From the NCBI GenBank assembly GCA_041650915.1, contig JBAZKE010000001.1, forward strand, positions 119,770-183,769: 64,000 bases of DNA, written 5' to 3'. The notes under the pieces are model-generated. The model was not told where the DNA came from and did not search any database. It worked only from the letters and a program-made list of their open reading frames with translations. Origin of the DNA: Patescibacteria group bacterium (GTDB lineage: Bacteria; Patescibacteriota; Patescibacteriia; UBA10025; JAHIVO01). The number at the start of each line of letters is the position of its first letter. The first letter of the stretch is position 1. Positions 17,449 to 55,648 of the stretch are shown piece by piece. Both the position numbers and the translations under genes were made by a program.

Positions 17449-18375
17449 ATGGATCCACTGGAAAAAGCAATCATCGCGACGCTCAGCTATTTTGACGTGT
17501 TTGACTACCCGTTGACTGCCGTCGAGATTTGGAAGTGGCTGTACGTCAGCAGCGCGGATGGCGTGCCGGTACAGGCTGCTGTCGGTGACGTAGTCGGAGC
17601 GCTCGAGGAGCGTGAAAAAATCCGCCAGCGTGTTGATTTCAAGGATGGTTTCTACTTTCTGAAGGGGAGGGGGGAAACGGTGGAGAAGAGAATGGACCGC
17701 TACCGGCTCGCCGAGCGGAAGTTTCACCGGGCGCTGCGGGTGGTCTCCTTGCTGCGGCGGATGCCGTTCGTGAAGATGATCGGCATCTGCAATACGCTTG
17801 CGTACAGCAACAGCAGGCGGGAGGGGGACATCGATCTCCTCATCGTGACAAAACGGCGGCGGGTATGGCAGGTGCGTTTTTGGGTTACGGGTTTTCTAAA
17901 GCTCTCCAATATGCGGCCGCGCCCCGGCAGGACCGAGGATACCATTTGCCCGTCCTTCTTTGTCGATGAAGATCACCTCGACCTCAGCGGGCTCGCTCTC
18001 GAGAATGACATCTATCTTCCGTACTGGGTTTCGCAGGTCGTGCCGGTGTACGATGAGGGCATCTACCGTACCTTCATTGCGTCGAATGCATGGATTCACC
18101 GGGCTATTCCGAACGTGCTTCCATACGTTCCAACAGCACGGCGTCGGCGGAAGCGCGTGAAGCTCTGGAAGTATTTTATTTCGGCTGCCTGTGCCCCCCT
18201 GCCTGAGCAGCTCTTCAAGCGGTACCAGCTGCGCGTGATGCCGAAACGCCTCCGGGAGCTCGCGAACAGGGACAGCAGGGTTGTGGTGCAGGATTACATG
18301 CTTAAGTTCCACGATAATGACAGGCGCGCGTATTTCTACGATCAGTGGAAACAGCGCCTCGCACGGTCCGTATGA
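17449..18375 (+). CDS. Hypothetical protein with putative minimal nucleotidyltransferase-like motif
   Basis: GICNTLAYSNSRREGDIDLLIV resembles Pol-beta-superfamily GS...DxD motif; 4-nt ATGA overlap with downstream membrane protein gene. Confidence 0.45.
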   Translation: MDPLEKAIIATLSYFDVFDYPLTAVEIWKWLYVSSADGVPVQAAVGDVVGALEEREKIRQRVDFKDGFYFLKGRGETVEKRMDRYRLAERKFHRALRVVSLLRRMPFVKMIGICNTLAYSNSRREGDIDLLIVTKRRRVWQVRFWVTGFLKLSNMRPRPGRTEDTICPSFFVDEDHLDLSGLALENDIYLPYWVSQVVPVYDEGIYRTFIASNAWIHRAIPNVLPYVPTARRRRKRVKLWKYFISAACAPLPEQLFKRYQLRVMPKRLRELANRDSRVVVQDYMLKFHDNDRRAYFYDQWKQRLARSV

Positions 18376-19700
18376 AACAATTTTGCCAAAAAGTCCAATC
18401 GTATGCGCTGTATCTGCTCATCTTTCTCTTGCCGTGGCAGACGCGCTGGATATGGCACCAAGGTTCCCTTAACGGCGGCGTGTGGGAGTACGGCACCTTC
18501 AGCCTGTACGCAACGGATATCCTGGCGGCAATCATCATCCTTTCCGGCATCGCACTCCACGCACGGACACGCGTCCGTTCCCTGGGCAGGATTGGCGGTA
18601 CGGTCGCGGCTTTCTTCCTCATCTGCTTCGTGACCGTTTTGTGGTCGGTGAACAAGGAGGTGTCGTGGTATGCTGCACTGAAGCTCCTCGAGTACGTCGC
18701 CCTGTTCTGGGCTGTTTCCCGTATGCAATTCAGGTGGCGCGGAGTTGCAGCGGCTTTCATTTCGAGCGGGTTTGTACAGGCGATCCTGGGAATCTACCAG
18801 TTTTTTTCCCAGCAGATCATCGAGAGCACGTGGTTCGGGCTCGCAGCGCACAGCCCGGACGTACTCGGCGATTTTGTCGTGGAAACCGCCGGAGGTAGGT
18901 TCCTGCGCGCGTACGGTTCCCTGCCGCATCCGAACATGCTCGCCGGTTTTCTCGTCGTCTGCCTCATCGTGATAATCGGTTACCTGTTCAAGGCGTATCG
19001 CAACCGGTCGGAAAACTTGCCGGCTATCATTCTCGCAGTTACCTCGTTCGTGGTCATGTACTACGGTCTCATACTTACCTTCTCCCGGAGTGCGTGGCTT
19101 GCCTTCGGGCTGGCGATCCTTGCACTCTTTGCGCTCGGGCTCTGGCACCGCGACGAGTACCGGCTCCGCATCCTCGTGCCGGTAACGCTGTGGATTGTCC
19201 TCGTGACAGCGTTCAGCGTGTATCTGCTGCCCGACCTGTGGGAGACGAGGATTACCGGTGGGAGGCTTGAACAGCAGTCGAGTGCAGAGCGCGTGTACTC
19301 GTATGGAGATGCAATCGAAATGATCCGCGGCAACTGGTATCAGGGGGTTGGCATCGGCAGTTATACGCAGGCGCTGTACGATGCTGACCATTCGCTTGAG
19401 TCGTGGGCGTACCAGCCTGCCCATAATGTATACTTGCTCGTCAGCGCTGAGTCGGGCGTTTTCGGCGGTGCGGTATTCCTCCTCCTGGTCGGCGAGGTCG
19501 GCGCGGCGATGCTCTGGAGGCGGAGGCGTGAACTCCGTACGGCGAGCTGGTATACCGTATACAGCCTGTCGTTTATTGTGCTGCTCATTGTCGGGCTGCT
19601 CGACCACTACCTGTGGTCACTCGCATTCGGCGGCATGCTCATGTGGCTGGTATTCGGGTTATGGGCGAAGCGGTATAGTGATTTTTCTGTGGATAACTAA
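18372..19700 (+). CDS. O-antigen ligase/polymerase-like (Wzy_C family) polytopic membrane protein
   Basis: ~10-12 hydrophobic segments; Wzy_C-like motif YQPAHNVYLLVSAESGVFGG in a large periplasmic-type loop. Confidence 0.65.
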   Translation: MKQFCQKVQSYALYLLIFLLPWQTRWIWHQGSLNGGVWEYGTFSLYATDILAAIIILSGIALHARTRVRSLGRIGGTVAAFFLICFVTVLWSVNKEVSWYAALKLLEYVALFWAVSRMQFRWRGVAAAFISSGFVQAILGIYQFFSQQIIESTWFGLAAHSPDVLGDFVVETAGGRFLRAYGSLPHPNMLAGFLVVCLIVIIGYLFKAYRNRSENLPAIILAVTSFVVMYYGLILTFSRSAWLAFGLAILALFALGLWHRDEYRLRILVPVTLWIVLVTAFSVYLLPDLWETRITGGRLEQQSSAERVYSYGDAIEMIRGNWYQGVGIGSYTQALYDADHSLESWAYQPAHNVYLLVSAESGVFGGAVFLLLVGEVGAAMLWRRRRELRTASWYTVYSLSFIVLLIVGLLDHYLWSLAFGGMLMWLVFGLWAKRYSDFSVDN

Positions 19701-39496: not shown

Positions 39497-41038
39497 ATGG
39501 AGAAAAAAAGCATTGCTACCGTTTTGCTCGTCGCGATCCTCGTACTCGGAGGCATACTGCGCTTTGTGACGCTGGACCGCGAACTCATTTTCGATGACGT
39601 CTTCAGCATCCACTACGCCTCCCTCCCCGCCGGTGATATCATGCACTACTCCGCGAGCGAGGTATCCGAGGTGCCGCTCTATTACCTCATGCTCCACGGC
39701 TGGATAGGAATGTTCGGATCCGGAGCGGTTGCAGCCAAGATGTTCTCACTGCTCATGAGCCTCGGCTCAATACTCGCGATGTACTTTTTGGGCAGGCTGC
39801 TGTTCAGCAAAACGGTTGGATTGGTAGCGAGCTTGCTCCTGAGCGTGAGTTCGATTGATATCCTGCTGTCCGGGGATGTCCGTGCATACACGCTGCTCAT
39901 ATTCTTGACGATCGCCTGTGTGTACCATTTTTGGCAGTACGTACGGAGCAGGAAGCTATCGGTACTCGTGTTGTTTTCAGCGTGCTCGGTTCTGGCGGTC
40001 TATACGCACTACCAAGCGTGGCTTGTCGTGCTGGCGCTTAATCTATTTATTTTCGTTTTTTATAAGCACCATAGCATCCCAGTCAGGCAGTGGCTGCTCG
40101 CCCAGGTAGCAGTCGTACTCTCGTTCGTGCCGTGGATCCTGTACAGCGTCATCCCAAACTTGCGGGATGGCATCTTCGGTACGAGTTGGACCAACCTCAT
40201 ACAGCAGCAGTATAGCAGGCTGATGGTATTCGACATGCCGCTCAACTTCATGCTCATGCCGCGCTTCACCGATAATGCCGCGTTTCAGCTCGGCATCCTG
40301 TGGTATACGCTTTTTTTCATCGCCATTGTTTTTGCCGCCGTCTCGTTCCGCCGCGGGCATTTTACGATTGACAAACAGCACGTGCCGGAGCGGATTCTGC
40401 TGCTCGTGCTCTTGCTGATCCCACTGTGCGCATTCTTCGTTTTTGTAGTTCCCGTGCCGAAATACTACGTCGTAGCAGCGATACCGCTCTATGTGATCGC
40501 TGCGTACGGCGCCTCGTCGGCGGTAAAAAAACCTGCGGTACTGTTTGGGATCGGCGCCACAGCGCTCGGGAGTACGTTGCTCTTTATGCCCCAGCTCATA
40601 CAGCTCGCCGCAGCTACGGGCGCCCAGGAGCAGGCAATCGCGTACATCCAGTCGCAGGAACAGGACGAGGATGTCATCCTCGTGCACCACTACCGCGCGC
40701 GGCTCTTCTTTGACCAGCACTACACCGGCACCGCGCGGGTAGCGGGCATTTACCCGAAAGACGATTTTACCGATCTCGACTATGAGATCGCGCGCTTCAA
40801 TTCGCTGCAGGAGCCGGTCATCACCCGGGATACTGTCGATGTATTGCAGAATATGATTTGCAGCAGCAACAGGATTTGGCTATACGCGAGCGAGCTGACT
40901 GCCGCTGAGAAAGAGAGCGGATTGCGGATCAGGGAGTGGCTTGATGATAACGGATGGAGAGCCGTGGAGCCGGAGAACAGCCCGTATGATTTCATTACGC
41001 TGTATGAGAGGGGCAGGCAGGTTGACGTAATCCGGTAG
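39497..41038 (+). CDS. Glycosyltransferase family 39/83-like (ArnT/PMT_2-like) polytopic membrane protein
   Basis: ~11 TM helices, early loop with DDVFS acidic motif, soluble C-terminal domain ~180 aa; RBS-less 12-nt gap after DedA gene. Confidence 0.6.
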   Translation: MEKKSIATVLLVAILVLGGILRFVTLDRELIFDDVFSIHYASLPAGDIMHYSASEVSEVPLYYLMLHGWIGMFGSGAVAAKMFSLLMSLGSILAMYFLGRLLFSKTVGLVASLLLSVSSIDILLSGDVRAYTLLIFLTIACVYHFWQYVRSRKLSVLVLFSACSVLAVYTHYQAWLVVLALNLFIFVFYKHHSIPVRQWLLAQVAVVLSFVPWILYSVIPNLRDGIFGTSWTNLIQQQYSRLMVFDMPLNFMLMPRFTDNAAFQLGILWYTLFFIAIVFAAVSFRRGHFTIDKQHVPERILLLVLLLIPLCAFFVFVVPVPKYYVVAAIPLYVIAAYGASSAVKKPAVLFGIGATALGSTLLFMPQLIQLAAATGAQEQAIAYIQSQEQDEDVILVHHYRARLFFDQHYTGTARVAGIYPKDDFTDLDYEIARFNSLQEPVITRDTVDVLQNMICSSNRIWLYASELTAAEKESGLRIREWLDDNGWRAVEPENSPYDFITLYERGRQVDVIR

Positions 41039-45644: not shown

Positions 45645-48179
45645 ATGAAAACGATTCGGATGGGGTATCTGCTCTTTGCGTTCCTTGCCGTCGGCGGATT
45701 GCTCATCGGCGCACAGGCCGCACGAGCAGCGGAAAATATCACGTGGGCGCAAGCTAACGAGGACGGCTTTGGCGATCCCGATCGTATGGTTGTGTATGAT
45801 TTTCAGGAATTCGACGGGATGCTCTATGCCTGCGTGGTTCATGGAGTGGCCGATTATAGCATCATGGCATACGATGGAACTGAATGGACATTAGCATCGA
45901 TAACCGGATTCGGGGACTTCAATAACAGCGATTGCTATCATATGGCCGTATTTAATGGCAACCTGTATGTGGGTACCCGGAACGACGTAACGGGCGCTGA
46001 GGTCTGGGCGTACGATGGTACCGACTGGTCCCAGGTGAATACGGACGGTTTTGGGGACGCTGCTAATTCATCCATTTGGGGCATGTATGGGGATAACGAT
46101 TATTTATATGCGACAACACTGAACCTGACAACGGGAGCGCAAATATGGGCGTATGACGGCACTGACTGGACGCAAATTGTTGCTGACGGATTCGGGACAA
46201 CCTTCACCCTATACGCAGTCCCCATGGTTACGTTTCAGGATAAGCTGTTTACAGGAACGTACAATGGGAACGGCAGCCAGCTGTGGGCGTATGACGGCAC
46301 TGACTGGACGCAAATCGGCACTGACGGATTTGGAACAACGAACATCGGGATTATCAGCCTCGCCGTGTACGAGGATCGGCTGTTTATCGGCACATACAAT
46401 CCAATAACTGGCGCTGAAATTTGGACCTATGACGGCACGAATCTGGATTCCCTGATGACGGGAGGGTTCGGGAGCGCGGACAACTGGACCGTTCTTTCGC
46501 TTGCTGAGTACCACGACCTGTTATACGCGAGCACCACGAACGAAGCGAGTGGCACTGAAGTGTGGGTGTACGAGCTTGACGAGTGGACCCAGATAAACGA
46601 TGACGGCTTCGGAAATGCATTGAATTTTCGGTGCCGCGATCTCGCGGTGTGGGAGTACGCGCTGTATGGTAGTGCAGATAATTTAGTAACCGGAGTTGAG
46701 GTATGGGTTGGCAGCGTGGATGACAGCGGCGGCCCAGTTGTATTGTCTCCATCACCGGCAGCAAATGAAATCAGCGTCGCCTCTGACGCCGATGTTTCAT
46801 TTGAAATTACCGACGCTGTTTGGGACGTTGATCTCGGGACGCTGAGCGTGGTATTTGGCGATACGGATGTGATTCTCGGAGGCGTTTTCCAAGCTGGATA
46901 CAGCGGCACGATCGAGCACAACGGCGAGAACGGGTATGTCGTAACGATTAATCCTGCTGATAGTTTTATACCCGGAGAGCTTATCAGCGTTGGTGTTGCC
47001 GCGGATGATGTCGTGGGAAATGCGATGGCCGGTGCATGGACGTTCACCATTGATCGCATCCGGCCCTCCCTCGGCATCGTCGTTACCCCCGCCTCAGCAG
47101 GCGGCCCCAACGTCCGGGTTGTGGATGATGCTGGCACCCAGATTTCCTCCTTTTTTGCCTATGACCAGTCTCTCCGCATGGGCCTGGAAGTGGAGCAGGC
47201 GGACATTGACGCGGACGGGGTGAACGAGATCGTGATTACGCCCGGTGCAGGCGTCGAATCCCGCATCAAGGCGTTTGAATTGGACGGCACGGAAATGGCA
47301 AACACACTCGCGTTCAACGAGGGCTTCACCGGCGGGGTGAACGTCGCGACCGGGGACTTTGACGGCGACCACGCGGAAGACATCGCGGTAACCCCGATCG
47401 GCGCCGGCGGCCCCAATATCCGCATCTATACGTACGATGCAACCGAAGAAGCATTTGAGCTTCTGGACTGGTTTTTTGGGTACGGCGAGGAATTCCGCGG
47501 TGGCGTGAATGTGGCAGCCGGCGACCTTGACAATGACGGTATTGACGAGCTCATCGTGACCCCCCGGGGCGCCATGTCGCCGGAGGTGAAGGTATTCCGG
47601 TACAATGCCGGCACTCAGGCATTTGACCTCGTCGACAGCGTGACCGCGTACCAGGATACGTTTTTCGGCGGGGTGCAGGTAGCCACGGGTGACGTGGATT
47701 CTGACGGCAGTGACGACATTATTGTCGCCCCGTTCCTGAATGGCGGCCCCAATATCCGCATTTACTCGCTCAACGGCTCGGATGAGCTCGAGCTGCTGGA
47801 CTGGCTCATGGCGTACGATAACAGCTACCGCGGCACGCTTTCCATGCAGGTCGGGGACACGGACGGCGATGGTTACAACGAAGTCGTCGTCGCTCCCAAG
47901 ACCTTGGGTGATTCCACGGTCAAGGTGCTGCGCTATGACGGCACTGATTTCGAAGAAGTCGATTCATTCATGGCGTATGACGAGCATTTCACGGGCGGGG
48001 TAAACCTGTTTGTGCACGACACTGACGCTGACGGTTTTGACGAGGTCATGGCGTCGCCGGCCTCCCATGGCGGCCCGAACCTGCGCGTGTACGATTACGA
48101 TTCCGATGTCGAGGTGCTCAAAGACTGGTTTTGGGTATTTCCCGAGGGTTTCCGGGGCGGAGTGAATTTTGGGAAGTAA
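45645..48179 (+). CDS. Large secreted repeat protein: N-terminal ~48-aa propeller-like repeats (WAYDGTDWTQ...DGFG) plus C-terminal FG-GAP/VCBS-like repeats
   Basis: Signal peptide MKTIRMGYLLFAFLAVGGLLIGAQAARA; seven or more N-terminal repeats; C-terminal repeats with GGPN(I/V)R(I/V)...F.AYD..FRGGVNVA.GD.D.DG.DE(I/L)(I/V)V.P. Confidence 0.7.
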   Translation: MKTIRMGYLLFAFLAVGGLLIGAQAARAAENITWAQANEDGFGDPDRMVVYDFQEFDGMLYACVVHGVADYSIMAYDGTEWTLASITGFGDFNNSDCYHMAVFNGNLYVGTRNDVTGAEVWAYDGTDWSQVNTDGFGDAANSSIWGMYGDNDYLYATTLNLTTGAQIWAYDGTDWTQIVADGFGTTFTLYAVPMVTFQDKLFTGTYNGNGSQLWAYDGTDWTQIGTDGFGTTNIGIISLAVYEDRLFIGTYNPITGAEIWTYDGTNLDSLMTGGFGSADNWTVLSLAEYHDLLYASTTNEASGTEVWVYELDEWTQINDDGFGNALNFRCRDLAVWEYALYGSADNLVTGVEVWVGSVDDSGGPVVLSPSPAANEISVASDADVSFEITDAVWDVDLGTLSVVFGDTDVILGGVFQAGYSGTIEHNGENGYVVTINPADSFIPGELISVGVAADDVVGNAMAGAWTFTIDRIRPSLGIVVTPASAGGPNVRVVDDAGTQISSFFAYDQSLRMGLEVEQADIDADGVNEIVITPGAGVESRIKAFELDGTEMANTLAFNEGFTGGVNVATGDFDGDHAEDIAVTPIGAGGPNIRIYTYDATEEAFELLDWFFGYGEEFRGGVNVAAGDLDNDGIDELIVTPRGAMSPEVKVFRYNAGTQAFDLVDSVTAYQDTFFGGVQVATGDVDSDGSDDIIVAPFLNGGPNIRIYSLNGSDELELLDWLMAYDNSYRGTLSMQVGDTDGDGYNEVVVAPKTLGDSTVKVLRYDGTDFEEVDSFMAYDEHFTGGVNLFVHDTDADGFDEVMASPASHGGPNLRVYDYDSDVEVLKDWFWVFPEGFRGGVNFGK

Positions 48180-50878: not shown

Positions 50879-50999
50879 GTTTTCCAAAAACAGGAAAGAA
50901 TATACTCTACCCCCGAATTTTTTCGGGGGTAGTTTTCTATTGAAAGAACGTTCAATTTATGCTATAATGTAGATACAAATCAAAATAAAAAACAAAAAA

Positions 51000-51230
51000 A
51001 TGAAAGAAAAGTTTATATCCGCCGGGATTGTAAGCTTACTGATTGGAGTAGGAGCTTTTTTGATTAGCATTTCCGGATCAGCCGCACAGGGTGAGGTACA
51101 GGCTGCCGCTGATTTTACCATTACCGTTACTGGCAGAGTGATGCTGTCGGACGGCGAAGACGAAGTGCTCGTCATGCCCCGTTCAGGTGGCGGCCCCAAC
51201 GTCAGGATCATTGAGCCGGGGGATATTTAG
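51000..51230 (+). CDS. Small ORF: signal peptide + C-terminal FG-GAP fragment duplicated from end of downstream gene
   Basis: Last 22 aa (DGEDEVLVMPRSGGGPNVRIIE) and 66 nt (51150-51215) nearly identical to 3' end of 51246-53978 gene. Confidence 0.4.
   Translation: MKEKFISAGIVSLLIGVGAFLISISGSAAQGEVQAAADFTITVTGRVMLSDGEDEVLVMPRSGGGPNVRIIEPGDI
51150..51215 (+). repeat. Direct repeat copy 1 (66 nt, 61/66 identical to 53899-53964)
   Basis: gacggcgaagacgaagtgctcgtcatgccccgttcaggtggcggccccaacgtcaggatcattgag. Confidence 0.8.
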
Positions 51231-51245
51231 AAATAACATAAAAAT

Positions 51246-53978
51246 ATGAGTAAACATTTTGCATCCTCTTTGATTGTTATTTTTTCTTGCACGATTGTCA
51301 TACTCTTTTTTTCCACATTAGCAATTGATGTGGAAGCAGTGACTGAATCAACGCTACCTATTATTACAGTTACGGGGACATTATACGGGTATGATGATAC
51401 CCCTGTAAATAGGGGCGTAACAGTGATGCTCTATGTTGGACGAGATAATAGTCCTTATAATGAACAATTTCAAATAGGGCAGGGAGATACGGTAAGTAAT
51501 GAGGGTGATTTTTCGGTTACCTCGTGGGATTGGGGATCGTTGGGGGGTTACTTTGAGGGTGGCACCGATCCGTACACTCCAGAGCAGCTCGCAGCATACG
51601 ATCCAGAGACATACCACGTGTACGTTACTTTCATTGGTGAGAGTAAGCAGATGATTCGTGATGTAAATGGTGATTTTAAAAAGCAGCATCGGCCTGATCG
51701 AATTGATCTTGGGATCGTAACCAGCAATAAAACATTTAAACTTGGGGATATTAGTTTTCGAGAACCAAACGTGTATGGGCGAATTCTGACGGATGATGGA
51801 ATCTACACTGCTGAGACGAGAATGTTGATCACTCCAAAGGGAGAAGAAGCAACATATGATGACCAGATGATTAGTGATATCATGGGTTTTTGGATGTATC
51901 GTGAGCCAGGTGAGTACACGGTGAAGCTCTATGATGAGTATGATGAGTGGGCAGGAGGATTTCAGCCCGCAATAACGGAATCAAATTTAATGCGCACCTT
52001 TGACATAACTATAGGTCAAAATGGTATTCAGTCTGCAGATTTTTTTGAAAATGATAATCACCTTGATGAAGAAGGATACATCGCAATACCGCAAGGTGTT
52101 GTTTCGCCATCAATTGATTCTCTGCTAGCAGAAATAAATACAACTACACTTTCAAAAGACACTGTCGGCCTCAACGTTCACCTCGCCATCACGAGCGGAG
52201 CAGGCTATGACGCCTCAATGATTGAAGCGTTGACGGAGTCTGAAACGCGGTGGGTCCGGGAACGTTTTGACATCGAATCATACGCTCAGCCGTCGGTACC
52301 AGAGCGCTATGAAGAGGTGCGCAATTTGTACCGGGACAACGGGATGAATATTGTTGGAATGATCGCCGGAGGCGTTGACCAGCTTCCAAGCATTGATGGC
52401 TGGAAAGAGTTTGTAACCGAAGTAGTTACCGCCCACAAAGACTACATCAAGGTGTGGGAAATGTGGAATGAGCCGGATCTGGAAAAGTATTTTTTACCGA
52501 ATACTGTTGCCGCCTACATTCCATATCTCAAGGCCGGATACGAGGCGGTTAAAGCGGTCGATCCTGATGCGCTTGTCTTGCATGCGCCGCTTTCATGGCC
52601 AAACGCCTCATTCCTCGAGGGTTTGTACCAGCAGGCAGGGGATTATTTTGACGAACCGTCTTTCCATGTGTACTACTGTGATCGATATAAAGCAGACGGT
52701 AACCTGGATTCGCTGCAGCGCGACTTCGCAAGCGCACTTGCCGTCGTGAACAAGTACCGCTCGTCGGATAAAATCTGGATTACCGAGCTTGGGTGCTCGA
52801 CCTATAGTGATTACTCGGAAGATTTTCAGAATCAGTACCTACAAGCAGCGGTACCATATTTACTCTCGACAAACGAAGTTGAAAAAGTATTATTGTTTAA
52901 TGTTATTGATAGAAACACTGGCGATGCATATGAGGATGATTTTGGTTTACTGAAAACAGATTTTTCTGCAAAACCTGCGTGGGAATGGTATATGACTTTT
53001 CAGGCAGGGACTTCAGTTTCAAATCAATACACCGCCCCCGTCGCCTCCGGCACATCCTTTTTCGCGTACGCCCAATCCCTCCGGGGCGGGTACCAGCTCA
53101 CGTCAGGGAACGTCTTGGGTTCCGATGCTGCCGAGATCATCACCGGCACGGGCGACGGCATGGGCCCCCACGTACAGGTATTTGACGCAAACGGCAACAA
53201 GAAAGCCCAGTTTTTCGCGTACGACCAGTCCCTTCGCAATGGCGTCACGGTCTCAGCCTGCGACGTGAACGGTGACGGCTACGACGAGATCGTCACTGCC
53301 CAGGGCACGGGAGGCTGGCCTGTAGTAAGGATCTTTGATTCAGGCGGCACCCAGGTAGCCGATGAGTTCTACGTTCTGGACGGCAAATACACGGGCGGCG
53401 TCCACCTCTCGTGCGGCGATACGGACGGCGACGGTACCTCCGAGATCGTGGTTGCTGCCCGCCAGGGCGGCGGCCCCCACGTACTGGTGTACAGCATGGA
53501 AGGCAAAATCCTCACCAATTTCATGGCATACGACCCCAACTTCAGAGGGGGCATCAACATCACCACCATTGACATGGACGGGGACGGCAAGGATGAGATC
53601 GTGACCGGACCCCAGTGGGGCGCCCCCCATGTCCAGATATTCCAAATCAGGCCCAATGAGCTCAAACGGCTCTCCCCCGGGTTCTACGCGTTCAACACCG
53701 ACTACCGCGGCGGGGTGCAGGTTGCCGGGCTTGATACGGACGGCGACGGCACCAAGGAGCTCATTGTCGGTGTCGGCGACAACGCCACGCCTTTAGTCCG
53801 CCGCTACAACATCCGCGAAGAACTCCAGCAGGAATTCTTCGCCTTCGGCACCAATTACCTTGGCGGCGTCATGGTCGCAGGCGGCGATATTGATGCTGAC
53901 GGCAAAGACGAAGTGCTCGTCATGCCCCGTTCAGGTGGCGGGCCCAATGTCCGGATCATTGAAACATCCGAAATATGA
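51246..53978 (+). CDS. Secreted clan GH-A (GH5/GH39-like) glycoside hydrolase domain fused to C-terminal FG-GAP repeats
   Basis: Signal peptide; WEMWNEPD (acid/base NEP motif) and ITELGCST (nucleophile TELG motif) of clan GH-A TIM barrels; C-terminal repeats FFAYDQSLRNGV...GGPHV... homologous to 45645-48179 C-terminus. Confidence 0.65.
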   Translation: MSKHFASSLIVIFSCTIVILFFSTLAIDVEAVTESTLPIITVTGTLYGYDDTPVNRGVTVMLYVGRDNSPYNEQFQIGQGDTVSNEGDFSVTSWDWGSLGGYFEGGTDPYTPEQLAAYDPETYHVYVTFIGESKQMIRDVNGDFKKQHRPDRIDLGIVTSNKTFKLGDISFREPNVYGRILTDDGIYTAETRMLITPKGEEATYDDQMISDIMGFWMYREPGEYTVKLYDEYDEWAGGFQPAITESNLMRTFDITIGQNGIQSADFFENDNHLDEEGYIAIPQGVVSPSIDSLLAEINTTTLSKDTVGLNVHLAITSGAGYDASMIEALTESETRWVRERFDIESYAQPSVPERYEEVRNLYRDNGMNIVGMIAGGVDQLPSIDGWKEFVTEVVTAHKDYIKVWEMWNEPDLEKYFLPNTVAAYIPYLKAGYEAVKAVDPDALVLHAPLSWPNASFLEGLYQQAGDYFDEPSFHVYYCDRYKADGNLDSLQRDFASALAVVNKYRSSDKIWITELGCSTYSDYSEDFQNQYLQAAVPYLLSTNEVEKVLLFNVIDRNTGDAYEDDFGLLKTDFSAKPAWEWYMTFQAGTSVSNQYTAPVASGTSFFAYAQSLRGGYQLTSGNVLGSDAAEIITGTGDGMGPHVQVFDANGNKKAQFFAYDQSLRNGVTVSACDVNGDGYDEIVTAQGTGGWPVVRIFDSGGTQVADEFYVLDGKYTGGVHLSCGDTDGDGTSEIVVAARQGGGPHVLVYSMEGKILTNFMAYDPNFRGGINITTIDMDGDGKDEIVTGPQWGAPHVQIFQIRPNELKRLSPGFYAFNTDYRGGVQVAGLDTDGDGTKELIVGVGDNATPLVRRYNIREELQQEFFAFGTNYLGGVMVAGGDIDADGKDEVLVMPRSGGGPNVRIIETSEI
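53899..53964 (+). repeat. Direct repeat copy 2 (66 nt)
   Basis: gacggcaaagacgaagtgctcgtcatgccccgttcaggtggcgggcccaatgtccggatcattgaa. Confidence 0.8.
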
Positions 53979-54772: not shown

Positions 54773-55648
54773 TTATGCTGCCTTTCGGCGGTAGGTTTTC
54801 AGGAAGTTGCTGAATTCCGCCAGTGCCGGGAAAAACCGCGCGCATTTTTTTGATTTCCACGGGGCGTACGTGAATTTTTTCCCCCACGCGCCGCCTCCGA
54901 AAGCGAGGCAGATGCCGTTTTTATCAGCAAATGCAAAGAGCTTCTTGTAGTATGCGGGCGATTCCTTTGTCGCATACGTCTTTGAGCTGATGATGACCCG
55001 CGGCTTGATTTTTTTCGCGGCCTTGATGAGCTCTTGGATGCTGATGTTTACGCCGAGCGTGTGGGTATTCCATCCGTTGATTTTAAAGACGAGCTCAAGC
55101 AGCTGCAGCGGAAGTTCGTGGTACTCGCCGGGCGCGCAGGTGAGAATAGCCGAGGGTGACCGTTTGGTGACCGTTGACGGCACGTACTGTGAGAGCTTCA
55201 TGAGGTGCGTACGGATCGTGAAGCTCATTCGGTGCTCTTCATACACCGAGATTGTATCATCGGACCAGTCAGCGCTCATCTGCCGCATCGTCGGCGTGAT
55301 CACCTTGCTGAGGATTCCCAGGATCGGGGAGCCCGCGAGGTACTCTTTGTCAATGATTTCAGCTGCCCGGTCTCCCTCATTATTCTTGAGGAGCCGGTAG
55401 TATGCCTTCCAGCAGTGGACGTCCGGACAGTGCTCTTTCTTGAGCAGCCGGCGCAAGACGTATGAATTTTTAGCATACCGCGGGTACTTTTTGATAAAAA
55501 ACTCGAGCTGCTCCCTGGATATTCTGCGGTGGCCTCCGGCGGTGAGGTCTGTTTCGAGGTAGCCGTTATCAGCCCACCGTTTGATCGTGGAGACGTTTAC
55601 CCCGAAGAGCGGGGCGAGCTGCGGTGGCGTAAAATGCACGTTTTGCAT
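54773..55648 (-). CDS. MerR-family regulator with C-terminal cobalamin-binding domain (CarH/LitR-like)
   Basis: N-terminal MerR HTH (FTPPQLAPLFGVNVSTIKRWADNGYL), C-terminal B12-binding Rossmann-like region (ILTCAPGEYHELPLQLLELVFKINGWNTHTLGVNISIQELIKAAKKIKPRVIISS). Confidence 0.55.
   Translation of the reverse strand: MQNVHFTPPQLAPLFGVNVSTIKRWADNGYLETDLTAGGHRRISREQLEFFIKKYPRYAKNSYVLRRLLKKEHCPDVHCWKAYYRLLKNNEGDRAAEIIDKEYLAGSPILGILSKVITPTMRQMSADWSDDTISVYEEHRMSFTIRTHLMKLSQYVPSTVTKRSPSAILTCAPGEYHELPLQLLELVFKINGWNTHTLGVNISIQELIKAAKKIKPRVIISSKTYATKESPAYYKKLFAFADKNGICLAFGGGAWGKKFTYAPWKSKKCARFFPALAEFSNFLKTYRRKAA

What the first reader, a model, noticed from the sequence alone, without database searches (positions are those of the whole stretch)
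51246..53978. Unusual domain architecture: clan GH-A glycoside hydrolase fused to integrin-like FG-GAP repeats
The motifs WEMWNEPD (catalytic acid/base) and ITELG (nucleophile) place the central domain in the GH-A clan (GH5/GH39/GH30-like). The C-terminus carries 6 or more FG-GAP/VCBS-type repeats. For an organism with minimal metabolism, a secreted polysaccharide hydrolase tethered by adhesion-type repeats may mediate attachment to, or feeding on, a host or partner cell surface.
Basis: partly seen in the sequence, partly recalled or inferred. Interest (0 to 1): 0.5.

Follow-up and report, generated by a model that had tools for sequence, protein, structure and literature searches.

The report
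PslG-like glycanase with six-bladed FG-GAP propeller
This gene from a tiny, reduced-genome bacterium (Patescibacteria) encodes an exported sugar-chain-cutting enzyme of a known family (GH39, PslG-like) joined to a six-bladed propeller that these bacteria also attach to many cell-wall enzymes, so it is a rare domain combination built from familiar parts.

Summary
ORF 51246-53978 (+) encodes a 910-aa protein with a clan GH-A (beta/alpha)8 barrel and exactly six C-terminal FG-GAP repeats.

The barrel can be placed more precisely than "GH5/39/30-like". A family profile hits PslG at 1.5e-41 and BcGH39 at 8e-36, and both fold searches rank the same proteins first. E409 and E514 align with PslG Glu165 and Glu276 and are invariant.

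The fusion is rare for this GH lineage: 3 of the 150 best 50%-identity clusters, and 2 loci among the 80 best of 397 confirmed in GTDB species genomes. The propeller module itself is common, with at least 1,521 relatives. In Patescibacteria it is fused mostly to L,D-transpeptidases and M23 peptidases, and also to S8 and NAGPA domains.

The module is therefore best read as an envelope- or glycan-targeting cassette. That weakens, but does not exclude, the host-feeding idea. The gene is not in an EPS operon. Substrate and binding target remain unknown.

Verdict: a new modular variant of a known enzyme kind, of moderate interest.

The parts
51246..53978 (+). Complete ORF, 910 aa: GH39-like glycanase fused to an FG-GAP propeller
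51246..51338 (+). N-terminal export signal (aa 1-31): hydrophobic helix at aa 5-21, with a possible signal-peptidase site VEA|VTES. Cleavage versus membrane anchoring was not resolved.
   Evidence: hydrophobic N-termini are present in all family members
51357..51755 (+). Beta-rich domain 1 (aa ~38-170). No Pfam match. Inferred to be a stalk or spacer.
   Evidence: strands, pLDDT mostly 70-90; no Pfam hit; relatives P0031 and P0040 carry CarboxypepD_reg domains in front of the barrel
51771..52085 (+). Beta-rich domain 2 (aa ~176-280). No Pfam match.
52143..53000 (+). (beta/alpha)8 catalytic barrel, clan GH-A, GH39/PslG-like (aa ~300-585)
52470..52472 (+). E409, predicted general acid/base (WNEPD), aligned to PslG Glu165
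   Evidence: PMC11912335
52785..52787 (+). E514, predicted nucleophile (ITELG), aligned to PslG Glu276
   Evidence: PMC11912335
53052..53975 (+). Six FG-GAP repeats (aa 603-910), predicted to form a six-bladed beta-propeller. Five blades carry DxDxDGxxE calcium loops. Mean blade-to-blade identity is 35%.
45645..48179 (+). Paralogous FG-GAP-tailed exported protein (844 aa; weak Big_5 match, below Pfam's cut-off, plus about seven repeats). It shows that the module is reused within this genome.
51000..51230 (+). 76-aa mini-ORF directly upstream: a signal-like N-terminus fused to a copy of the last ~36 aa of the propeller. Probably a remnant of a paralogue.

Best explanation
The gene encodes an exported, multi-domain, retaining glycanase of the PslG-like branch of CAZy family GH39.

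**Domain order.** A signal or anchor sequence comes first, then two beta-rich spacer domains, then a compact (beta/alpha)8 barrel. The barrel cleaves a beta-linked glycan by the double-displacement mechanism, with E409 as acid/base and E514 as nucleophile. A C-terminal, calcium-loop-bearing, six-bladed FG-GAP propeller follows.

**Role of the propeller.** It is a reusable targeting cassette that Patescibacteria attach to many extracytoplasmic envelope enzymes. It holds the enzyme on a glycan-rich surface, most likely the bacterium's own wall or envelope polymers and possibly a partner cell's. There the barrel trims or degrades a surface or matrix polysaccharide.

**Shown:** the fold, the catalytic residues, the family placement, the export signal, the blade number in the model, and the partner spectrum of the module.

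**Inferred:** endo-acting mode, calcium binding, lectin or anchoring function, and which cell's glycan is cut.
For: **GH39/PslG placement**
- Family profile versus PDB: PslG 1.5e-41, 5jvk (BcGH39) 8e-36, GH39 xylosidases about 1e-20. All other GH-A families score 1e-9 or weaker.
- Foldseek on the domain model (pLDDT 91): PslG first at E 8e-15, TMq 0.72.

**Catalytic residues**
- E409 and E514 align to PslG Glu165 and Glu276 (alignment; residue roles from PMC11912335).
- They are invariant in 20 relatives, together with R338, N408, H474 and Y476.
- They sit right after beta4 and at the end of beta7.

**Export**
- All family members have a hydrophobic N-terminus, as do 70 of 103 complete-looking module relatives.

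**Propeller**
- Six repeats, 24 strands.
- Foldseek also hits integrin alpha propellers (about 1e-9) and UmbA4 (9oee, deposited as a teichuronic-acid-bound complex, 3e-8). PMC13274773 describes UmbA4's C-terminal domain as a six-bladed propeller lectin that binds teichuronic acid.

**Cassette**
- The module alone has at least 1,521 relatives at E<=1e-10.
- By my count of the 120 best listed, about 50 carry YkuD L,D-transpeptidase, about 12 M23, 3 S8 and 2 NAGPA. Most named sources are Patescibacteria. Domain order was verified.
- The module is reused next to the gene in the window (844-aa protein) and in the syntenic loci (NAGPA+FG-GAP, NHL+FG-GAP).
Against: - No substrate information exists. 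Identity to any characterised GH39 is 20% or less.
- Pfam's GH39 model scores below its cut-off (19.7 versus 26 bits).
- After the barrel comes a short linker and then the propeller, so the beta-sandwich that I recall accompanying GH39 barrels is not evident there.
- The full-length model has pTM 0.42, and in that model aa 552-595 are low-confidence. Domain packing is therefore unknown.
- The 'own wall' inference rests only on guilt by association with L,D-transpeptidase fusions. M23 and S8 partners could equally be weapons against a host.
Confidence: 0.6

Rival explanations
1. Host-directed enzyme. The propeller is an adhesin or lectin for glycans on the surface of a host or partner cell. The GH39 barrel digests the host's capsule, EPS or wall glycopolymer to gain access or to harvest sugars.
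For: - The organism is a Patescibacterium. All cultivated members of the group are episymbionts (abstract of PMC11623550, listed).
- Wang et al. 2023 speculate that essential envelope proteins with lectin-like VCBS domains in a Saccharibacterium target host glycans, for adhesion or for degradation (PMC10633639).
- The propeller model resembles UmbA4, whose six-bladed propeller binds a target cell's teichuronic acid.
- PslG-type enzymes degrade matrix polysaccharide.
- The gene lies outside any EPS-synthesis operon.
Against: - The same module is most often fused to L,D-transpeptidases, sometimes with PG_binding_1. That enzyme class cross-links the producer's own peptidoglycan, so the module is not specific to host attack.
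- There is no evidence about any host, and no linked uptake or catabolic genes next to the gene.
Confidence: 0.25
2. A PslG-like housekeeping role in the organism's own exopolysaccharide pathway: a biosynthesis-associated hydrolase that trims or releases a self-made polymer as part of a synthase machinery.
For: - PslG is the closest characterised relative. It is one of the Psl proteins of the exopolysaccharide biosynthesis machinery (abstract of PMC6813494, listed).
- A Wzy_C protein (18345-19700) and a PMT_2 glycosyltransferase (39497-41038) exist elsewhere in the window.
Against: - The neighbours are a lipoprotein-like ORF, HD, DUF5654, ZIP, MerR/B12, CorA and a nucleoside phosphorylase. None is a glycosyltransferase, flippase or polymerase. 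The same non-EPS synteny is conserved in the 71%-identical homologue's locus.
- The nearest glycan-synthesis genes are 10-30 kb away.
Confidence: 0.1
3. A non-catalytic surface adhesin: the barrel is a degenerate carbohydrate-binding scaffold and the protein only binds glycans.
For: Pfam's GH39 model scores below its cut-off. The protein has multiple binding-type domains.
Against: All GH-A catalytic and substrate-positioning residues (R338, N408, E409, H474, Y476, E514) are invariant across relatives that share only 22-79% identity. That pattern is typical of active enzymes.
Confidence: 0.03

Closest known systems
PslG of Pseudomonas aeruginosa (CAZy GH39; PDB 4zn2, 5bx9, 9g17)
   Same: - Best sequence-profile hit (1.5e-41 over the whole barrel) and best Foldseek hit.
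- Same NEP acid/base and TE nucleophile positions: Glu165/Glu276 correspond to E409/E514.
- Exported enzyme with a compact barrel.
   Different: - Identity is about 20% or less.
- PslG is a 442-aa protein (size recalled, not checked here) and belongs to the Psl exopolysaccharide biosynthesis machinery. This protein has 910 aa, about 250 aa of N-terminal beta-rich domains and a 300-aa C-terminal propeller, and it is not in an EPS operon.
- The substrate here is unknown.
BcGH39 from Bacteroides cellulosilyticus WH2 (PDB 5jvk) and the GH39 beta-xylosidases and glucosidase (1w91, 4ekj, 5z3k)
   Different: No FG-GAP module. The xylosidases score far lower (about 1e-20 by profile).
Patescibacterial FG-GAP/VCBS-tailed envelope enzymes (L,D-transpeptidase, M23, S8 and NAGPA fusions, e.g. 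P0199, P0214, P0191, P0177)
   Same: The six-repeat propeller cassette is homologous at 35-65% identity over about 85-98% of its length. These proteins have export signals and come from the same phylum.
   Different: The catalytic head differs. A GH39-like head is a rare partner. In the L,D-transpeptidase fusions the propeller is N-terminal.
Integrin alpha-subunit FG-GAP beta-propeller
   Same: FG-GAP repeat signature and DxDxDGxxE/D calcium loops. Foldseek E about 1e-9.
UmbA4 six-bladed propeller lectin of Streptomyces umbrella toxins (PDB 9oee)
   Same: A six-bladed propeller with calcium-loop-type repeats that recognises a cell-wall glycopolymer, teichuronic acid. It is a functional precedent for a targeting role.
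   Different: The similarity is structural only (E 3e-8). UmbA4 delivers a toxin particle rather than a glycosidase. Glycan binding by the present propeller is untested.

Membership tests
Clan GH-A (4/7 superfamily) glycoside hydrolases | (beta/alpha)8 TIM-barrel catalytic domain | tested here: met
   AF2 model with pLDDT 91.1 and pTM 0.91, showing eight alternating strand/helix units. 519 PDB matches at E<=1e-3, and the listed top 50 are almost all GH-A barrels.
Clan GH-A (4/7 superfamily) glycoside hydrolases | General acid/base Glu in an N-E-P motif after strand beta4, and nucleophile Glu at the end of strand beta7 | tested here: met
   N408-E409-P410 follow strand 401-406, and E514 ends strand 510-515. 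Both are invariant in 20 relatives.
Clan GH-A (4/7 superfamily) glycoside hydrolases | The two Glu carboxylates about 5 A apart in the active site (retaining geometry) | not testable with these tools
This needs a distance measurement on the model or a solved structure.
CAZy GH39 (PslG-like branch) | Significant sequence similarity to characterised GH39 members, stronger than to other GH-A families | tested here: met
   Profile: PslG 1.5e-41, 5jvk 8e-36, XynB-type about 1e-20. GH1, GH5 and GH128 are at 1e-9 or weaker. Single sequence: 1.5e-8 and 2.9e-6.
CAZy GH39 (PslG-like branch) | Match to the family HMM above its curated threshold (Pfam PF01229; dbCAN GH39) | tested here: not met
   PF01229 scores 19.7 bits against a cut-off of 26, over aa 377-441 only. 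The dbCAN HMM is not available here. A formal CAZy assignment therefore remains open.
CAZy GH39 (PslG-like branch) | Accessory beta-sandwich domain packed on the barrel (a GH39 feature as I recall it; not checked in a source) | tested here: inconclusive
   After the barrel comes a short linker and then the propeller. The N-terminal beta-rich domain at aa 176-280 might substitute. Inter-domain confidence is low (pTM 0.42).
CAZy GH39 (PslG-like branch) | Retaining beta-glycosidase activity | not testable with these tools
   Needs enzymology.
Pfam Glyco_hydro_cc (PF11790) / GH128 | Closest structural and sequence relatives are the solved Glyco_hydro_cc-domain proteins (6uat, 6uax; GH128 by my recollection) | tested here: not met
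   The Pfam hit is above its cut-off (33.1 versus 21 bits) but partial (aa 388-564). 6uax and 6uat score only 3e-6 and 5e-4 against 1.5e-41 for PslG.
FG-GAP (integrin-alpha-type) beta-propeller | FG-GAP repeats above the Pfam threshold, with Ca-binding DxDxDGxxD/E loops | tested here: met
   FG-GAP_3 51 bits (cut-off 26.9) and FG-GAP 47.7 bits (cut-off 22.1). The motif is present in 5 of 6 repeats. Calcium binding itself was not tested.
FG-GAP (integrin-alpha-type) beta-propeller | Seven blades | tested here: not met
EPS-operon hydrolase (functional role of PslG) | Encoded inside a polysaccharide-biosynthesis gene cluster | tested here: not met
   The neighbours are unrelated to glycan synthesis in the window and in the syntenic homologue locus.

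The most novel reading that the evidence does not exclude
The six-bladed FG-GAP propeller is an uncharacterised, phylum-wide cell-wall or glycopolymer-binding module of Patescibacteria, functionally analogous to the SLH, LysM, SH3b and choline-binding modules of other monoderm bacteria. It positions a whole toolkit of envelope enzymes: L,D-transpeptidases, M23 and S8 peptidases, NAGPA phosphodiester glycosidases and this GH39 glycanase. The GH39 member would then be a dedicated remodelling or lytic enzyme for a still-unknown Patescibacterial (or host) secondary wall polysaccharide.
Probability: 0.35. Interest if true: 0.6.

Novelty: new variant of a known kind. Interest (0 to 1): 0.36.

Why it matters
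Patescibacteria make up a large share of bacterial diversity, yet how their envelope is built and how they engage other cells is mostly unknown.

- **What this protein offers.** It is a clear candidate for an extracellular polysaccharide-cleaving enzyme in such an organism. It has intact catalytic machinery and is close enough to PslG to guide assays, for example PslG-style activity-based probes.
- **The more useful by-product.** The attached propeller is a cassette shared by at least 1,500 exported proteins, dominated by peptidoglycan enzymes. If its ligand were identified, that would reveal a targeting system for the Patescibacterial envelope. It would also help decide whether enzymes like this one act on the bacterium itself or on a host.
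- **In itself.** A GH39 barrel plus an accessory binding module is ordinary CAZyme modularity.

Tried and rejected
- NCBIfam gave no hit for the whole protein.
- Pfam gave nothing for the N-terminal 289 aa. Those two beta-rich domains stay unassigned.
- The afdb50 fold library was unavailable, so I could not look for similarly built AFDB proteins.
- An exact-sequence lookup of the window's own protein (P0001) found no record, so the sample of origin is unknown.
- GH128/Glyco_hydro_cc was considered as the home family and rejected in favour of GH39.
- A seven-bladed integrin-type propeller was considered and rejected.
- An EPS-operon context was looked for and not found.
- Literature searches found no paper with both GH39 and FG-GAP, and none describing FG-GAP fusions with L,D-transpeptidases in Patescibacteria. 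There were only general remarks on VCBS/FG-GAP adhesion proteins.
- P0214 (M23 + FG-GAP) was checked against the window. It is not encoded there; only its repeats match.
Full report
**1.

The window carries an uninterrupted ORF at 51246..53978 (+) encoding 910 aa. It is a real, conserved gene. Four other metagenomic proteins of 896-938 aa align end to end at 53-71% identity. One of them is named by NCBI as a glycosyl hydrolase of a 'Patescibacteria group bacterium'.

WEMWNEPD is at aa 404-411 and ITELG at aa 512-516. Pfam finds Glyco_hydro_cc (5.6e-8), FG-GAP_3 (2.3e-13) and FG-GAP (1.4e-12), all above their curated cut-offs. The PDB sequence search finds 5jvk (1.5e-8) and PslG (2.9e-6).

**2. 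The catalytic domain is a GH39/PslG-like GH-A barrel.**

- **Conserved residues.** I aligned the domain (aa 285-595) with 19 relatives down to 22% identity. R338, E405, W407, N408, E409, D469, H474, Y476, E514 and G567 are invariant. This is the residue constellation I recall as typical of clan GH-A.
- **Sequence placement.** A profile of that alignment hits PslG at 1.5e-41 over the whole barrel, BcGH39 (5jvk) at 8e-36, and GH39 beta-xylosidases at about 1e-20. GH1, GH5, GH10, GH51 and the Glyco_hydro_cc-domain structures 6uax and 6uat are at 1e-9 or weaker.
- **Model.** AlphaFold2 on this alignment gives a confident model (pLDDT 91.1, pTM 0.91) with eight alternating strand/helix units. E409 follows beta4 and E514 ends beta7.
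- **Catalytic residues.** Counting through the alignment (chain index + 26), E409 falls on PslG Glu165 (acid/base) and E514 on Glu276 (nucleophile). Those roles, and the classification of PslG as a retaining GH39 endo-beta-glucanase, come from PMC11912335.
- **Caveats.** Pfam's own GH39 model is sub-threshold (19.7 versus 26 bits). No dbCAN scan was possible. Identity to any characterised enzyme is 20% or less.

**3. The rest of the protein.**

The full-length model (pLDDT 76.6; pTM 0.42, so domain packing is unreliable) shows:

- an N-terminal hydrophobic helix at aa 5-21;
- two beta-rich domains at about aa 38-170 and 176-280;
- the barrel;
- 24 strands in six groups of four at aa 603-905.

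The N-terminus looks like an export signal, with a possible VEA|VTES cleavage site. All family members have one. The two beta-rich domains have no Pfam match. More distant relatives of the barrel carry CarboxypepD_reg/SdrD_B-type domains in the same position.

**4. The propeller has six blades.**

A repeat HMM finds exactly six units. Five of them carry DxDxDGxxE loops. Mean blade-to-blade identity is 35%.

Foldseek also lists integrin alpha (about 1e-9) and UmbA4 (3e-8). UmbA4's six-bladed, calcium-loop-type propeller binds teichuronic acid on target cells (PMC13274773).

So 'integrin-like' is right for the repeat signature and wrong for the geometry.

**5. How unusual is the fusion?**

For this GH lineage it is rare.

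- An exhaustive HMMER search of 1.84 billion cluster representatives finds 5,506 relatives of the barrel, but only 21 at E<=1e-30.
- Among the 150 best, only three clusters carry the repeat: P0002, P0028 (46% identity in the barrel) and P0035 (38%, with no N-terminal domains and seven repeats).
- A scan of one genome per GTDB species confirmed 397 loci. Of the 80 best kept, only two hold the fusion (L003, L004). The other close relatives (36-42% identity) are mostly Kerfeldbacteria or Patescibacteria proteins without it.

The propeller module itself is far from rare.

- Searched alone, it has at least 1,521 relatives at E<=1e-10.
- By my count of the 120 best, about 50 are L,D-transpeptidases (YkuD, some with PG_binding_1), about 12 are M23 peptidases, 3 are S8 peptidases, 2 are NAGPA phosphodiester glycosidases and 4 are fn3 proteins.
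- Source names are mostly Patescibacteria, Kerfeldbacteria or Roizmanbacteria.
- I confirmed the domain order for eight of them. The propeller is C-terminal in the M23, S8, NAGPA and fn3 fusions and N-terminal in the L,D-transpeptidases.
- 70 of the 103 that start with Met have a hydrophobic N-terminus.

The module is also reused locally.

- An 844-aa exported protein with a weak Big_5 match and about seven repeats lies 3 kb upstream in the window.
- The syntenic locus of the 71% homologue has an NAGPA+FG-GAP gene two genes upstream.
- The 68% homologue's locus has an NHL+FG-GAP gene directly upstream.
- An M23+FG-GAP protein (P0214) lies on a contig of the same length (679,916 bp) as the contig carrying P0001, the database copy of this protein.

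**6. Context.**

The gene's neighbours are:

- a lipoprotein-like ORF, an HD-domain protein and DUF5654 upstream;
- a ZIP transporter, a MerR/B12-binding regulator, CorA and a nucleoside phosphorylase downstream.

The downstream set is conserved in the homologue's locus. No glycosyltransferase, flippase or polymerase is adjacent. The nearest are a PMT_2 protein 10 kb away and a Wzy_C protein 30 kb away. A PslG-like role inside an EPS operon is therefore not supported.

**7. Interpretation.**

- **Well supported:** this is an exported, catalytically competent, retaining GH39-type glycanase carrying a six-bladed FG-GAP propeller.
- **What the propeller does (inferred):** its dominant partners are enzymes that build or cut peptidoglycan, all exported. 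The simplest reading is a general envelope- or glycan-targeting cassette of Patescibacteria. The L,D-transpeptidase fusions point to the producer's own wall.
It gains no specific support here and is weakened by the partner spectrum. It remains a live rival at about 0.25.
- **Substrate:** unknown. Endo-action is inferred only from the closeness to PslG and the compactness of the barrel.

**8. Novelty and score.**

Both parts belong to known kinds, and accessory binding modules on CAZymes are ordinary. The specific GH39-like + FG-GAP architecture is rare. In the searchable literature no paper mentions both terms. The barrel is a divergent branch, largely restricted to Patescibacteria, next to PslG.

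I rate it a new variant of a known kind, with moderate interest (0.36). The most interesting lead is the cassette, not the hydrolase.

Noticed in passing
window 51000-51230 (+): A 76-aa ORF sits directly upstream of the gene. It lies behind a terminator-like hairpin (50907-50932) and an 11/12 promoter-like site (50940-50968). Its first ~30 aa look like a signal peptide. Its last 36 aa copy the final ~2/3 blade of the propeller: 67% aa identity to this protein's C-terminus, 69% to P0002's, and 89% DNA identity between 51139-51214 and 53891-53962. It is absent upstream of the homologues in L001 and L003. It is either an internally deleted remnant of an FG-GAP-tailed paralogue or a secreted single-blade peptide.
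   Followed up: partly
window 45645-48179 (+): A second exported FG-GAP-tailed protein (844 aa). It has a weak Big_5 Ig-like match (below Pfam's cut-off) and about seven repeats, 30-35% identical to the propeller of the finding. Its N-terminal ~360 aa have no Pfam match.
   Followed up: partly
proteins P0176-P0295; e.g. P0199, P0183, P0209, P0214: The six-repeat FG-GAP module is fused at large scale to L,D-transpeptidases (about 50 of the 120 best hits), M23 peptidases (about 12), S8 peptidases and NAGPA, mostly in Patescibacteria. In the literature I could search, I found no description of this cassette.
   Followed up: partly
P0013, P0014, P0017 (Kerfeldbacteria and other Patescibacteria relatives of the barrel), C-terminal ~170 aa: Instead of FG-GAP repeats, these relatives carry a two- to three-fold C-terminal repeat of the form 'NWxxLxNAYxYGGYPVxAIxxAxxYGGKTVH', with no Pfam match. 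It may be another wall-targeting module swapped onto the same catalytic core.
   Followed up: no
window 54773-55648 (-): A MerR/HTH_17 regulator with a weak B12-binding-domain match (below Pfam's cut-off), resembling light- or cobalamin-sensing regulators of the CarH/LitR type as I recall them. It is conserved next to the glycanase gene in the homologue's locus as well, which is unexpected in a reduced genome.
   Followed up: no
L004 1733-5080 (+) and L001 7413-9200 (+): In the homologous loci, the gene upstream of the glycanase is also FG-GAP-tailed but has a different head: NHL-repeat propellers in L004 (directly upstream) and an NAGPA phosphodiester glycosidase in L001 (two genes upstream). 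This suggests local head-swapping or tandem diversification of FG-GAP-tailed genes.
   Followed up: partly
loci L004, L010-L013, L018: Several contigs encoding Patescibacteria-type relatives of this protein are titled 'uncultured Gammaproteobacteria bacterium' in TPA co-assembly records. Given their closest relatives, these are probably taxonomic mislabels.
   Followed up: no
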